A stretch of 46,559 nucleotides of DNA from UHGV virus genome UHGV-0172001; one strand, given 5' to 3'. Shown in pieces: positions 13,229-20,439 of this stretch. Numbering within the stretch: position 1 is the first letter of the stretch; each line of letters opens with the position of its first letter. A model generated the notes under the pieces. It saw only the letters and a list, made by a program, of their open reading frames with translations. It ran no database searches and was not told the origin of the DNA. Made by a program: the position numbers and the translations under genes. This DNA comes from a virus.

Positions 13229-13509
13229 GAAGGAAACAAAACAGAAACAACAATTGCCGTTACCTGTTGTTACCATGGCAAGTAAACGTATCTCAGGCGA
13301 GCGCATTGCGCCGTTCTGACGCAGATAAATTAGCCTGGATAGATGGTGCTGGCAATAAAAAATAGCGTTTTCTTATCGGTGTCGGTAAGATTGCTGCGGG
13401 TGCTTGAGGCTGTCTGCCTCGGGCATGCCACTGTAAGGCAGACAGAGAAAAGCCCCAGTTAACATTACGCGTCTTGCAGGACGCTTAACATTAATCTGAG
13501 GCCCAATCT

Positions 13510-13716
13510 ATGCCACACAAACATAGGTTAGCCTCTTACGGACCGAAAGGTCAAGGAGAAGCAGGCTATGAAGCAGCAAAAGGCGATGTTAATCGCCCTG
13601 ATCGTCATCTGTTTAACCGTCATAGTGACGGCACTGGTAACGAGGAAAGACCTCTGCGAGGTACGAATCCGAACCGGCCAGACGGAGGTTGCTGTCTTCG
13701 TAGACTACGAATCTGA
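13510..13716 (+). CDS. mok-like overlapping reading frame of the hok locus
   Basis: 68-aa ORF overlapping nearly all of hok in another frame, as in hok/mok/sok loci. Confidence 0.45.
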   Translation: MPHKHRLASYGPKGQGEAGYEAAKGDVNRPDRHLFNRHSDGTGNEERPLRGTNPNRPDGGCCLRRLRI

Positions 13717-13723
13717 GAAGTAA
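13568..13723 (+). CDS. Hok/Gef-family type I toxin (HokD/RelF-like)
   Basis: MKQQKAMLIALIVICLTVIVTALVTRKDLCEVRIRTGQTEVAVF is near-identical to HokD as recalled; 51 aa; structured leader with a 10-bp stem at about 13395-13430. Confidence 0.9.
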   Translation: MKQQKAMLIALIVICLTVIVTALVTRKDLCEVRIRTGQTEVAVFVDYESEK

Positions 13724-13792: not shown

Positions 13793-13814
13793 AACCCGCT
13801 TCGGCGGGTTTTTT
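13793..13814 (+). terminator. Rho-independent terminator after hok
   Basis: AACCCGCTTCGGCGGG plus T6; identical 22-nt element recurs at 14633-14656. Confidence 0.75.
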
Positions 13815-13934
13815 CACGTACTGTGGTTGTGAATACGATTGGTATTAGGCTATGCTAACAACATTAGCCTGACTAATTTTGTATTGACTTGATTTTTTGT
13901 TAAAGAACAGGACGGAGAAGTAAGGGTACACCCA

Positions 13935-14114
13935 ATGAGCTACGCACTAAAAAAACACCCGCGATTGAGTATTCCCCCTCGCGATAAAAGCGTTGTGGCA
14001 GCTCCGCGCCCGGCTATTGATGAAAATTGCACACATCGTGAGCAGGTGAAAAATGCTTTCGATTTCGGTTTTTCTCGTTACGAGAAGGCAATGGAAGAAC
14101 TTTCAAAAGTGTAA
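13935..14114 (+). CDS. Small protein upstream of the Doc-like gene; candidate cognate antitoxin, not Phd-like
   Basis: 59-aa ORF ending 19 bp before the Doc-like start; palindrome AGGCT-N-AGCCT at about 13845-13871 upstream. Confidence 0.4.
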   Translation: MSYALKKHPRLSIPPRDKSVVAAPRPAIDENCTHREQVKNAFDFGFSRYEKAMEELSKV

Positions 14115-14132
14115 TAATGGGTATTGTGCTCT

Positions 14133-14618
14133 ATGGCTGAGATTGTTGAAGGAGTGCACTATCTTTCGGTTGATGATCTTACTGAAATCAATCGCCTTTT
14201 AATTGAGCTTCAAACACCAGATGAACCTGTAGGTGTGCTGAGTGTTGATAATTTAAGTTCTTCTCAGGCCCGTCCCAGCATGGTTCGATGGTATGAACAG
14301 ACTAATGACATGTTTGTACTGGCATCGGTATTGATTGAAAGTCTGATTCAGAATCATCCGTTTGCTAATGCGAACAAACGAACAGCTATGATGGCTGGTT
14401 ACGTCTTCTTGTTGTTGAATGGCTATGAGTTAACAGCACCAGGCGATGAAATCGTTGAAATGGCAGAGGGACTGGCCTGCAAAACCTATACTCGAGAAGA
14501 TCTCGAGAACTGGTTGTGTTATTGGTCTCGCGCGTATGACAGCCGGGAATTATGTAAAACAGGCGCAACTATTGTTTTGTATGAAACTATCAAGCTTAAA
14601 ATAGAACAGCAAAACTAA
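14133..14618 (+). CDS. Fic/Doc-family (death-on-curing-like) protein
   Basis: HPFANANKRTAMMAG matches the Doc/Fic motif HxFx(D/N)(A/G)NKR. Confidence 0.8.
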   Translation: MAEIVEGVHYLSVDDLTEINRLLIELQTPDEPVGVLSVDNLSSSQARPSMVRWYEQTNDMFVLASVLIESLIQNHPFANANKRTAMMAGYVFLLLNGYELTAPGDEIVEMAEGLACKTYTREDLENWLCYWSRAYDSRELCKTGATIVLYETIKLKIEQQN

Positions 14619-14632
14619 AGGTGCTTCCAATG

Positions 14633-14656
14633 AAAACCCGCTTCGGCGGGTTTTTT
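14633..14656 (+). terminator. Rho-independent terminator after the Doc-like gene
   Basis: AAACCCGCTTCGGCGGG plus T6. Confidence 0.75.
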
Positions 14657-14846
14657 GTTGTTTATTTTCGGTGAGTATGATGCATCTGGTTGTACTGATG
14701 TGATTGGCTGATTCTGTTATTCAGGTGGCTTATTGCTGTTGATTGGCATGTCTTCGCGGCTAGAATCGAGGCTCTTGAGTAGCGCGCAGGGAGAAGAGGG
14801 ATGGACCCCTTAAGGGGAGGTGTTTAAAGTTCACGGGATTTTGGTT

Positions 14847-15014
14847 ATGAACGATAAGGAATTAATTGCTGCGCTTTCTGTACCTGGTAATTATGAAGTA
14901 ATTGTTCTTGAGAATGGTGAATTTATCGTAATGCCATTGCCATCCGATGTTATTCTGATCACCAAAGAATCGCATGCGGATTCGGTCAGTCACTTCAGCA
15001 TTAAGAAAGACTAG
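14847..15014 (+). CDS. Hypothetical small protein
   Basis: ORF only; start uncertain (GTG 14820 or ATG 14847). Confidence 0.3.
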   Translation: MNDKELIAALSVPGNYEVIVLENGEFIVMPLPSDVILITKESHADSVSHFSIKKD

Positions 15015-15080: not shown

Positions 15081-15359
15081 GTGGTGCATTACAAGAAAAT
15101 TAACAATTCTGATAATTCAGCCGTCTTTGCCAGCAGGCACGGGCGGCGCTCTCACGCATTCAAATATGACTGGTACCAGCATGACCCCTGCACTGAAGAA
15201 CAGGCCGAATGGCTGATTCAGAACTACCGCAGGCGTGGGTACGAGTTTCAGAAAGACCTCAGTCCTGACTTCCGACACTGGATAATTTCTGTCAGGCTCC
15301 CTTATTCCGAACGCCCACCGTGTCCGTCCCGCACATTCCAGCAACGCATCTGGAGGTAA
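15081..15359 (+). CDS. Hypothetical protein
   Basis: GTG 15081 with GAGGA 5 nt upstream. Confidence 0.45.
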   Translation: MVHYKKINNSDNSAVFASRHGRRSHAFKYDWYQHDPCTEEQAEWLIQNYRRRGYEFQKDLSPDFRHWIISVRLPYSERPPCPSRTFQQRIWR

Positions 15360-20284: not shown

Positions 20285-20360
<76 letters not shown>

Positions 20361-20363
20361 TAT

Positions 20364-20439
<76 letters not shown>

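What the first reader, a model, noticed from the sequence alone, without database searches (positions are those of the whole stretch)
13935..14618. Doc/Fic-family toxin paired with a small upstream protein that does not resemble Phd
The 161-aa protein carries the Doc-type motif HPFANANKRTAMMAG. The only candidate partner is a 59-aa ORF ending 19 bp upstream (MSYALKKHPRLSIPPRDK...), which does not resemble Phd-family antitoxins as I recall them. A palindrome (AGGCT...AGCCT, about 13845-13871) upstream could be an autoregulatory operator. This may be a type II toxin-antitoxin pair with a non-canonical antitoxin, or a Fic-type effector.
Basis: partly seen in the sequence, partly recalled or inferred. 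Interest (0 to 1): 0.55.

Follow-up and report, generated by a model that had tools for sequence, protein, structure and literature searches.

The report
Prophage Doc toxin with mini-antitoxin
A two-gene toxin-antitoxin cassette inserted in a lambda-like prophage pairs a Doc kinase toxin with an unannotated 59-residue antitoxin that keeps the Doc-binding tail helix of known antitoxins but has no DNA-binding domain; this is a modest new variant of a well-known system.

Summary
ORFs 13935-14114 (59 aa) and 14133-14618 (161 aa) exist. The larger one is a Doc-family toxin (TIGR01550 126 bits; motif HPFANANKR). The small one matches no Pfam or NCBIfam model and does not resemble Phd.

The small ORF is a real gene (dN/dS 0.12 in frame, 1.3 and 2.1 out of frame). 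It lies directly upstream of this Doc clade in 80/80 viral loci and 31/31 genomic loci, in unrelated phage contexts.

Its C-terminal 24 residues are predicted to form one helix. At profile level they match the tail of MazE/AbrB-type Doc antitoxins (hhalign 92%, E 6e-7; 0/200 shuffles). That family includes E. faecalis EFPhd, whose tail is seen in crystal structure 9VZC as the helix inserted into Doc. The N-terminal half has no DNA-binding fold, only a conserved IPxRDK block of unknown role.

The pair is an 842-bp low-GC moron bracketed by a duplicated terminator, next to a hok/sok module.

The "operator" palindrome has 6-bp arms, is at chance level, and is not conserved.

Verdict: a type II Doc toxin-antitoxin pair with a neutralisation-only mini-antitoxin, not a Fic effector. 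It is a new variant of a known kind, of moderate-low interest and useful for annotation. Toxicity, neutralisation and binding are untested.

The parts
13935..14114 (+). 59-aa mini-antitoxin gene (phrog_2208; 'hypothetical protein' in RefSeq). It has an N-terminal conserved block L-x-I-P-x-R-D-K (residues 11-18), a variable Pro-rich linker (19-35), and a C-terminal helix QVKNAFDFGFSRYEKAMEELSKV (residues 37-59).
   Evidence: ORF. phrog_2208 at 5e-42, with no Pfam or NCBIfam hit. dN/dS 0.118 in frame against 1.30 and 2.12 out of frame. Family alignments A1 and A2. AF2 predicts a helix at 34-57 with pLDDT 92-95 and a coil N-terminal half. Tail against the MazE-type Doc antitoxin tail: hhalign 92%, E 5.8e-7.
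14133..14618 (+). Doc-family toxin gene (161 aa). The catalytic motif HPFANANKR is at residues 75-83 (nt 14355-14381). A clade-specific C-terminal extension, WLCYWSRAYDSRELC, is at residues 127-141.
   Evidence: Pfam PF02661 at 8e-12; TIGR01550 at 126 bits (cutoff 38.65); phrog_577 'Doc-like toxin' at 2e-50. The closest solved structure is E. faecalis Doc 9vzc_A (E 1.8e-13), followed by P1 Doc 3k33 (E 9.5e-5). Invariant motif residues are listed.
14115..14132 (+). 18-nt intergenic spacer (TAA TAA TGG GTA TTG TGC TCT) with no strong Shine-Dalgarno sequence before the Doc ATG. This is consistent with translational coupling (inference).
   Evidence: Sequence. In related loci the distance from the small-protein match to the Doc match is mostly 11-55 nt (63 nt in L102, 233 nt in L114, where the Doc gene looks truncated).
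13840..13848 (+). Extended -10-like element TGGTATTAG, 86 nt upstream of the small gene's ATG. It is the candidate promoter of the cassette.
   Evidence: TGGTAT[AT][ACG] is present at a similar distance in 45 of 90 unique upstream regions across lineages. Other lineages have TTGACT...TATAAT-type promoters. This is a consensus match only and was not picked up by the generic scan.
13847..13870 (.). It is probably not functional.
   Evidence: Chance-level. Present in 17 of 112 related loci, all near-identical to the window. L011, L015, L020 and L027 carry non-compensatory arm changes.
13793..13814 (+). Left copy of the 22-nt terminator hairpin AACCCGCTTCGGCGGGTTTTTT (the hok terminator). It marks the left boundary of the inserted cassette.
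   Evidence: Exact direct repeat. The empty-site phage has a single copy.
14635..14656 (+). Right copy of the same terminator hairpin. It is the intrinsic terminator of the antitoxin-Doc operon and the right boundary of the cassette.
   Evidence: Downstream sequence rejoins the empty-site phage sequence.
13815..14656 (+). 842-bp moron unit (promoter region, small gene, Doc, terminator), 41-45% GC against roughly 48-53% in the flanks.
   Evidence: (H1-H12 join query ~320 to ~1320).

Best explanation
The two genes form a type II toxin-antitoxin operon carried as a moron in a lambdoid prophage. The 161-aa protein is a Doc-type Fic-fold kinase. By analogy with P1 and Salmonella Doc, it is expected to phosphorylate EF-Tu (Thr382/383) and stop translation. 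The 59-aa protein is its antitoxin. [quoted passage not shown] Unlike Phd/YefM-, MazE/AbrB- or RHH-type Doc antitoxins, it has no DNA-binding domain. It is therefore essentially a neutralisation element plus a short conserved N-terminal block (IPxRDK) of unknown role. The operon has its own promoter and terminator. When antitoxin supply stops or the antitoxin is degraded, free Doc would arrest the cell, which would serve prophage retention or abortive defence. Shown here: the family assignment of Doc, the coding status of the small gene, the strict gene linkage, the tail similarity, the absence of a DNA-binding fold, and the moron structure. Inferred: binding, neutralisation, the EF-Tu target, antitoxin lability and the biological role.
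For: Doc: TIGR01550 at 126 bits against a cutoff of 38.65; Pfam Fic/DOC; Doc-type motif invariant across the clade. Small gene is coding: dN/dS 0.118 in frame against 1.30 and 2.12 off frame, with pN ~0.08 in the two conserved blocks and 0.32 in the linker. Linkage: small gene directly upstream of Doc in 80/80 viral loci, and in all 31 genomic loci whose Doc is at least 37% identical, spanning Enterobacterales, Orbaceae, Pseudomonas, Halomonas, Kushneria and Marinobacter. The pair moves as a unit between unrelated contexts: the nin region here, a tail/baseplate module in an Ewingella prophage, next to dinI-umuDC, and next to the integrase in Pseudomonas phages Sirocco and LPPA56. Tail: hhalign of the family against MazE-type Doc antitoxins gives 72.6% for the whole proteins and 92%, E 5.8e-7 for the tails alone; the score is 26.3 against 7.0 +/- 1.7 for column shuffles, with 0/200 reaching it. 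With the family HMM, the best sub-threshold hits among 19,193 ORF segments are all ORFs immediately upstream of Doc genes. The MazE-type profile matches EFPhd (9vzc_B) including its tail at E 2.3e-6, and in the crystal that tail (residues 52-79) is the bent helix inserted in Doc (PMC13034048). Among solved structures, the window's Doc is closest to that same EFDoc. AF2 predicts one helix at 34-57 with pLDDT 92-95 and nothing globular. The near-invariant F42 and L56 are 14 residues apart, like the 'gatekeeper' F56 and L70 of Salmonella Phd (PMC9207808); this is a pattern match only. A SUMO-fused Phd-C element alone neutralises a Doc (PMC10440598), so a neutralisation-only antitoxin is feasible.
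Against: The tail similarity covers only ~24 residues of an amphipathic helix, so convergence cannot be excluded. The AF2 model of Doc was poor (pLDDT 56), so the groove was not examined. The conserved IPxRDK block is not explained by a simple neutralising-tail model. Without a DNA-binding domain, the usual autoregulation is unexplained, yet some lineages carry promoter palindromes with compensatory changes. One locus (L007) has the small gene without Doc.
Confidence: 0.8

Rival explanations
1. The small protein is a complete antitoxin-repressor. Its N-terminal IPxRDK segment forms a DNA-binding beta-ribbon when two copies are brought together (for example on a Doc dimer), so the operon is autoregulated like a classical type II system, and the upstream palindrome or a neighbouring site is its operator.
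For: The N-terminal block is as constrained as the tail (pN 0.083) and has moderately high pLDDT of 84. 'v-x-I-P-x-x' resembles the DNA-contacting strand of AbrB/MazE domains (by eye). EFPhd drives Doc dimerisation (PMC13034048). The Providencia and Morganella loci have a palindrome between -35 and -10 with compensatory variants. Seven of 38 lineages have promoter-proximal inverted repeats at p<=0.05, against about 2 expected.
Against: hhalign of the N-terminal 24 residues against the MazE domain is at background: 7.5 against 6.4 +/- 1.5, with 38/200 shuffles reaching it. AF2 gives no strand or fold there. About 20 residues with 4-5 prolines is too short for any known antitoxin DNA-binding fold. 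The inverted repeats differ in sequence and position between lineages although the protein block is nearly invariant. The window's own palindrome is at chance level and decays non-compensatorily in close relatives.
Confidence: 0.1
2. The pair is not an addiction or defence module. It is a phage host-takeover or effector function: a Fic-type enzyme that modifies a host target during lytic growth, with the small protein acting as a specificity or targeting subunit rather than an inhibitor.
For: It lies in the nin region and so would be transcribed from the early rightward promoter during lytic growth. The PHROG category of Doc-like toxins is 'moron, auxiliary metabolic gene and host takeover'. 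This Doc clade has a C-terminal extension absent from P1 Doc, which loosely co-varies with the small protein's N-terminal block.
Against: The motif is the Doc kinase type HxFx(D/N)(A/G)NKR, not the AMPylation motif HxFx(D/E)GNGRxxR (sequence; knowledge from Castro-Roa 2013 as cited in PMC10440598). The cassette has its own terminator and promoter-like element and occurs at many positions in different phages, including tail modules and att-proximal sites, which fits lysogen-expressed morons. The small protein's tail matches antitoxin tails that are known inhibitors. No secretion signal or extra domain is present.
Confidence: 0.07
3. The small ORF is a chance or vestigial ORF, and Doc is a solitary (orphan or inactivated) toxin.
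For: The small ORF has no annotation beyond 'hypothetical protein' in any source, and no Pfam or NCBIfam family.
Against: dN/dS is 0.12 in frame only. A Shine-Dalgarno GAGG is conserved before the ATG across lineages. Thirty-seven clusters at 50% identity have two conserved blocks. Synteny with Doc is 100% in the 111 loci scored. The catalytic residues of Doc are invariant.
Confidence: 0.02

Closest known systems
MazE/AbrB-type Doc antitoxin with Doc: the 'composite mazE-doc' systems such as TasA-TasB (PMC1626090), S. pneumoniae phd-doc (PMC4257102) and E. faecalis EFPhd-EFDoc (PDB 9VZC, PMC13034048)
   Same: The gene order is the same, with the antitoxin upstream and a short gap. The Doc toxin has the same motif, and EFDoc is the closest solved homologue of the window's Doc. 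The C-terminal antitoxin tail is profile-similar (hhalign 92%; EFPhd belongs to that profile). In 9VZC that tail is the Doc-inserted helix.
   Different: The ~45-residue SpoVT/AbrB beta-sheet DNA-binding domain is absent. The N-terminal 24 residues show no similarity to it, and AF2 predicts coil. In its place is a short IPxRDK block plus a Pro-rich linker. The protein is 59 aa rather than 75-81 aa.
Phd-Doc of phage P1 and the Salmonella chromosome (Phd/YefM-type antitoxin; PDB 3K33, 3DD7; PMC9207808)
   Same: The toxin is a Doc kinase (E 9.5e-5 to 3k33_A). Both are prophage-borne two-gene modules. Neutralisation is by a C-terminal helix of ~22 residues that is disordered when free. The spacing of hydrophobic positions matches: F42, F46, Y49, M53 and L56 here correspond to hot spots F56, M60, H63, L67 and L70, with the gatekeeper pair 14 residues apart in both.
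   Different: There is no detectable sequence homology to Phd (hhalign 0.2%) and no Phd/YefM N-terminal domain. No operator could be demonstrated. Doc here is 161 aa, with a conserved C-terminal extension, against 126 aa for P1 Doc.
Neutralisation-only antitoxins and the 'Phd-C' linear neutralising element (NetFlax, PMC10440598)
   Same: The concept is the same: a linear, fold-on-binding element is sufficient to neutralise Doc (SUMO-Phd-C works). That paper notes that single-domain antitoxins consisting of the neutralisation domain alone exist.
   Different: This is a natural, widespread, free-standing version for Doc, with an extra conserved N-terminal block. I could not check whether it is a node in the NetFlax dataset.
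Class I Fic toxin with VbhA-type small antitoxin (VbhT-VbhA)
   Same: A ~60-aa protein is encoded upstream of a Fic-fold enzyme.
   Different: The small protein has no (S/T)xxxE(G/N) inhibitory motif (direct inspection of the sequence). The enzyme has the Doc kinase motif, not the AMPylation motif.

Membership tests
Doc (death-on-curing) Fic-fold kinase toxins | Fic/DOC domain and a DOC_P1 model score above the curated cutoff | tested here: met
   PF02661 at 46.3 bits (cutoff 24); TIGR01550 at 126.2 bits (cutoff 38.65)
Doc (death-on-curing) Fic-fold kinase toxins | Doc-type active-site motif HxFx(D/N)(A/G)NKR | tested here: met
   HPFANANKR at residues 75-83. H75, F77, N79, N81, K82 and R83 are invariant in 18 clade members.
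Doc (death-on-curing) Fic-fold kinase toxins | Phosphorylates EF-Tu Thr382 and arrests translation; toxic when expressed alone | not testable with these tools
   Requires toxicity and kinase assays
Phd/YefM antitoxins | Sequence membership (Pfam PhdYeFM; similarity to P1 Phd) | tested here: not met
   No Pfam or NCBIfam hit. The PDB profile search finds no Phd.
Phd/YefM antitoxins | Globular N-terminal dimeric DNA-binding domain | tested here: not met
   AF2 with a 37-sequence alignment predicts coil for residues 1-33 and a pTM of 0.36
MazE/AbrB-type Doc antitoxins (EFPhd/TasA type) | N-terminal SpoVT/AbrB swapped-hairpin DNA-binding domain | tested here: not met
   hhalign of the N-terminal part against the MazE domain scores 7.5 against shuffles of 6.4 +/- 1.5, with 38/200 reaching it. 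No PF04014 hit.
MazE/AbrB-type Doc antitoxins (EFPhd/TasA type) | C-terminal Doc-neutralising helix (...F..A...V..RY.KAL..LAE) | tested here: met
   hhalign of the tails gives 92%, E 5.8e-7, with 0/200 shuffles reaching the score. The whole proteins give 72.6%. The profile includes 9vzc_B. AF2 predicts a helix at 34-57.
Type II toxin-antitoxin operon | Small antitoxin gene immediately upstream of the toxin, inherited as a unit | tested here: met
   18-nt gap here. Adjacent in 80/80 viral and 31/31 genomic loci, in varied contexts.
Type II toxin-antitoxin operon | Autoregulation through antitoxin binding to a promoter operator | tested here: inconclusive
   No DNA-binding fold. The window palindrome is at chance level and not conserved. 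Some lineages do have promoter palindromes.
Type II toxin-antitoxin operon | Direct protein-protein neutralisation; labile antitoxin | not testable with these tools
Biochemistry is needed.
Class I Fic / VbhA-type antitoxin | Inhibitory motif (S/T)xxxE(G/N) in the small protein, and the HxFx(D/E)GNGRxxR motif in the enzyme | tested here: not met
   Neither motif is present in the sequences (direct inspection)
Phage moron | Presence/absence polymorphism at a fixed site, its own terminator (and promoter), and deviant base composition | tested here: met
   Empty site in the Stx2a phage. Duplicated terminator. GC of 41-45% against roughly 48-53% in the flanks. The promoter rests only on a consensus match.

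The most novel reading that the evidence does not exclude
The conserved N-terminal IPxRDK block is a second functional site, making this a new type of Doc antitoxin. One possibility is a clamp on the clade-specific C-terminal extension of Doc (WLxxWSR). Another is a toxin-dependent DNA-binding ribbon, which would explain the promoter palindromes in some lineages. A third is a pseudo-substrate mimicking the EF-Tu loop GGR-T382-V with Asp in place of Thr. In any of these cases, neutralisation or regulation would work by a mechanism not seen in Phd, EFPhd or VbhA.
Probability: 0.15. Interest if true: 0.6.

Novelty: new variant of a known kind. Interest (0 to 1): 0.36.

Why it matters
Doc toxins in thousands of E. 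coli, Salmonella, Providencia, Serratia and Pseudomonas genomes and prophages are currently annotated next to a "hypothetical protein", so they look like orphan toxins. Recognising the 59-aa family as the cognate antitoxin would correct toxin-antitoxin inventories. It gives a natural example of a Doc antitoxin reduced to its neutralising helix, which is useful for peptide-inhibitor design of the kind done for Salmonella Phd. It also raises the question of how such an operon is regulated without an antitoxin DNA-binding domain. The cassette sits in tandem with a hok/sok module in STEC-type lambdoid prophages, so it may contribute to prophage stability or to defence against other phages.

Tried and rejected
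1. I considered that the small protein is a MazE/AbrB antitoxin with an internal deletion, because the N-termini look alike by eye (MIKTLTKHGNSLALVIEKP against MSYALKKHPRLSIPPRDKS). Rejected: the hhalign score is at shuffle background.

2. Single-chain prediction of the complex. 

3. The AF2 model of Doc from an 18-sequence alignment was too poor to use (pLDDT 56), so I ran no fold search.

4. The palindrome as an operator: chance-level and not conserved. The generic promoter scan found nothing upstream on the + strand.

5. Prior art. Salmonella Phd-Doc (PMC9207808) and Dickeya phd-doc (PMC8198452) are both canonical Phd/YefM pairs, not this family. The accession WP_000119356 appears in no paper in the library.

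6. PADLOC has no defence-system model for the pair, only weak Fic-like hits at E 2e-3.

7. EF-Tu pseudo-substrate idea: the family profile does not hit any EF-Tu chain in the PDB at E<=10, so it has no statistical support.

8. Back-translation search with the diverse alignment A2 failed because no stretch was conserved enough. I used A1 instead.
Full report

Yes. The + strand carries a 59-aa ORF at 13935-14114 and a 161-aa ORF at 14133-14618. They are in the same reading frame, separated by TAA TAA and four codons.

The larger protein matches Pfam Fic/DOC (8e-12), NCBIfam TIGR01550 'death-on-curing family toxin' (126 bits, cutoff 38.65) and PHROG 577 'Doc-like toxin'. The motif HPFANANKRTAMMAG is at residues 75-89. 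H75, F77, N79, N81, K82 and R83 are invariant in an 18-member alignment of the clade.

The small protein has no Pfam or NCBIfam hit. It matches only PHROG 2208, function unknown. RefSeq and every other source call it 'hypothetical protein' or 'bacteriophage protein'. A profile of the family finds nothing significant in the PDB, and hhalign against P1 Phd gives 0.2% probability.

**2. Context**

The window is a lambdoid prophage of E. coli type. The pair lies in the nin region, downstream of a hok/mok/sok type I module (hok 13568-13723; sok RNA 13398-13570, Rfam 109 bits). It is upstream of ydfU-like, rusA-like and Q-like genes.

An exact 22-nt direct repeat, AACCCGCTTCGGCGGGTTTTTT (an intrinsic terminator hairpin), lies at 13793-13814 and 14635-14656. 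The 842 bp from just after the first copy to the end of the second have 41-45% GC, against roughly 48-53% in the flanks.

Phages that have hok but not Doc, such as Stx2a phage Stx2_14040, have one copy of the terminator followed by the same downstream sequence as the window. The pair is therefore a moron inserted at the hok terminator. The full cassette is present in 119 of 5,426 complete E. coli genomes.

**3. Is the small ORF a gene, and is it linked to Doc?**

Across 50 unique 177-nt orthologues, pooled dN/dS is 0.118 in the annotated frame, against 1.30 and 2.12 in the other two frames. Non-synonymous divergence is lowest in codons 11-18 (pN 0.083) and 36-59 (0.076), and highest in the linker 19-35 (0.318). 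A GAGG Shine-Dalgarno sequence is conserved before the ATG across lineages.

The word-indexed search found 17 clusters of at least 66% identity. The exhaustive HMM search found about 37 representative clusters at the 50% level, nearly all of them 44-95 aa proteins.

The alignment shows two conserved blocks separated by a variable Pro-rich linker. One is L-x-I-P-x-R-D-K near the N-terminus. The other is QVxNAFxxxFxRYxKAxxxLSKV at the C-terminus.

Using HMMs of both families on fetched loci, the small gene lies immediately upstream of Doc in 80 of 80 viral contigs. The same holds in all 31 genomic loci whose Doc is at least 37% identical to the window's. These span Enterobacterales, Orbaceae, Pseudomonas, Stutzerimonas, Halomonas, Kushneria and Marinobacter, and the distance between the two matches is mostly 11-55 nt.

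The pair appears in quite different neighbourhoods:
- inside a tail/baseplate module of an Ewingella prophage;
- beside dinI and umuDC;
- next to the integrase or the genome end in cultured Pseudomonas phages LPPA56 and Sirocco.

Only one short metagenome contig (L007) has the small gene without Doc. This is the signature of an obligate two-gene module.

**4. What is the small protein?**

More distant Doc homologues (31-42% identity; Streptococcus, Mageeibacillus, Patescibacteria, Chloroflexi, cyanobacteria) are preceded by longer antitoxins of 66-89 aa. Their N-terminal domains are MazE/AbrB-type or RHH-type, and their C-terminal tails look like the tail of the 59-aa protein.

I tested the resemblance in three ways.

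- I ran the small-family HMM at full sensitivity against all 19,193 ORF segments of all loci. The three best sub-threshold hits are all ORFs immediately upstream of a Doc gene. These are L119, a 55-aa bridging form (E 0.003), and the MazE-type antitoxin of L121/L123, aligned through its tail (E 0.4).
- hhalign of the small family (37 sequences) against a 23-sequence alignment of MazE-type Doc antitoxins (a family of more than 570 clusters) aligns residues 23-58 with residues 42-75. The probability is 72.6% and E is 3.2e-5.
- With the tails alone, the probability is 92% and E is 5.8e-7. The score is 26.3, against 7.0 +/- 1.7 for 200 column shuffles, none of which reaches it.

The same MazE-type profile matches chain B of PDB 9VZC (E. 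faecalis 'EFPhd') over its full length, tail included (E 2.3e-6). In that crystal structure only residues 52-79 of the antitoxin are ordered, and they form a bent helix inserted into the concave surface of Doc (PMC13034048). EFDoc (9vzc_A) is also the closest solved relative of the window's Doc: E 1.8e-13, against 9.5e-5 for P1 Doc.

AlphaFold2 on the small protein with the 37-sequence alignment predicts one helix at residues 34-57 (pLDDT 92-95). The N-terminal half is extended with no secondary structure, and pTM is 0.36.

The spacing of hydrophobic positions also fits the alanine-scan data for Salmonella Phd. Its hot spots F56, M60, H63, L67 and L70 correspond to F42, F46, Y49, M53 and L56 here. 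The two 'gatekeeper' residues F56 and L70 are 14 apart, as are the near-invariant F42 and L56 (PMC9207808). I count this as a consistent pattern, not as homology.

The N-terminal half is not a degenerate MazE domain. hhalign of residues 1-24 against the MazE domain scores 7.5, against 6.4 +/- 1.5 for shuffles, and 38 of 200 shuffles reach it.

**5. Most likely mechanism**

The pair is a type II toxin-antitoxin operon. The 59-aa protein neutralises the Doc kinase through its C-terminal fold-on-binding helix. It has dispensed with the DNA-binding domain that Phd/YefM-, MazE/AbrB- and RHH-type Doc antitoxins carry.

That a neutralising element alone can suffice is shown experimentally for another Doc: SUMO-Phd-C neutralises C. 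doosanense Doc. The same authors note that antitoxins consisting of the neutralisation domain alone exist (PMC10440598).

The following are inferences from P1, Salmonella and E. faecalis Doc and from what is generally known of morons. None was tested here.
- EF-Tu as the target.
- Lability of the antitoxin.
- A role in prophage retention or abortive defence.

The Fic-effector alternative is unlikely. The motif is the kinase type (NKR, lacking the GNGRxxR arginine), and the small protein lacks the (S/T)xxxE(G/N) inhibitory motif of VbhA-type partners.

**6. Regulation and the palindrome**

One such repeat in the 120-nt upstream region is what shuffles give: 0.5 +/- 0.9, with 33% of shuffles having at least one. 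It occurs in only 17 of 112 related loci, all nearly identical to the window. Close relatives (L011, L015, L020, L027) carry non-compensatory changes in the arms.

What is shared across many lineages is an extended -10-like TGGTATTA(A/G) element. Here it is at 13840-13848, 86 nt before the ATG, and it is found in 45 of 90 unique upstream regions. Other lineages have clear TTGACT...TATAAT promoters. The cassette therefore looks like an autonomous transcription unit.

A per-lineage test found promoter-proximal inverted repeats at p<=0.05 in 7 of 38 lineages, where about 2 are expected. They are heterogeneous and include upstream terminators and 5'-UTR hairpins. The clearest case is in Providencia and Morganella, where a palindrome lies between -35 and -10 with compensatory variants (TAATGTA..TACATTA, TAATGAAA..TTTCATTA, TAATGAAAG..CTTTCATTA).

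This keeps alive, at low probability, the rival that the small protein, possibly with Doc, binds DNA after all.

**7. The unexplained part**

The IPxRDK block is as constrained as the tail, but no known function can be assigned to it. This Doc clade has a conserved C-terminal extension (WLxxWSRxYDxRxLC, residues 127-141) that P1 Doc lacks.

The block and the extension co-occur in about 24 divergent loci. Both are absent in the two Marinobacter loci. Three or four loci are mixed. This is suggestive but confounded by phylogeny.

A pseudo-substrate idea (R16-D17 mimicking EF-Tu R381-T382) has no statistical support: the family profile does not hit any EF-Tu chain in the PDB at E<=10.

**8. Comparison with what is known, and novelty**

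The toxin is an ordinary member of the Doc family. The antitoxin is not a member of the Phd/YefM family or of the MazE/AbrB family, because the defining N-terminal domains were tested and not met. It does share the Doc-neutralising tail with the MazE-type group.

I found no paper describing it. The Salmonella and Dickeya 'phd-doc' systems are canonical Phd/YefM pairs. No Pfam, NCBIfam or PADLOC model covers it.

I rate it a new variant of a known kind: an unannotated, widespread, neutralisation-only antitoxin family for a Doc clade. Interest is moderate-low (0.36). A toxin-antitoxin specialist would not be surprised by domain shuffling or loss in antitoxins, but the family is worth annotating and the N-terminal block is a small open question.

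**9. Limits**

No binding, toxicity or expression data exist for this pair. The complex could not be modelled with the tools. The Doc model was poor. The tail similarity rests on about 24 residues.

Noticed in passing
window 13398-13723: A complete hok/mok/sok type I toxin-antitoxin locus lies immediately upstream (hok 13568-13723, Pfam HOK_GEF 4e-23; sok RNA RF01794, 109 bits, at 13398-13570). The prophage therefore carries a type I and a type II module in tandem, sharing the same terminator sequence.
   Followed up: partly
window 13793-13814 and 14635-14656: There is an exact 22-nt duplication of the terminator hairpin AACCCGCTTCGGCGGGTTTTTT at both ends of the cassette. The empty-site phage (L002 3269-3290) has one copy. 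This suggests insertion or exchange by recombination at the terminator.
   Followed up: yes
L089, L091, L092, L093, L102 (Providencia/Morganella), ~60-90 nt upstream of the small gene: A palindrome lies between the -35 TTGACT and the -10 of the cassette promoter, with compensatory variants between species (TAATGTA..TACATTA; TAATGAAA..TTTCATTA; TAATGAAAG..CTTTCATTA). It is operator-like, but the antitoxin has no recognisable DNA-binding domain.
   Followed up: partly
L007 853-1286: On one metagenome contig the small antitoxin-like gene is followed by an unrelated 76-aa ORF instead of Doc. This is an apparent orphan antitoxin, or a replacement of the toxin.
   Followed up: partly
window 14484-14555 (Doc residues ~118-141) and L088-L119: This Doc clade has a conserved C-terminal extension (EDLENWLCYWSRxYDSRxLC) absent from P1 Doc. 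It loosely co-varies with the IPxRD block of the small protein. Both are missing in Marinobacter L118 and L119.
   Followed up: partly
window 20285-20438: Two adjacent tRNA genes, tRNA-Thr(tgt) and tRNA-Gly(tcc), lie downstream of the Q-like region, as is common in Stx-type lambdoid prophages.
   Followed up: no
window 14820-15014 and 15081-15359: Two small ORFs downstream of the cassette match PHROG families of unknown function (phrog_34610 at 1e-42; phrog_1212 at 5e-36). In the empty-site phage the corresponding genes follow hok directly.
   Followed up: no
L167 (Pseudomonas phage Sirocco) 2450-3181; L168 (phage LPPA56) 2501-3175: The same small-gene-plus-Doc pair is present in cultured temperate Pseudomonas phages, next to the integrase or the att-proximal genome end. 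In LPPA56 even the Doc gene is annotated 'hypothetical protein'.
   Followed up: partly
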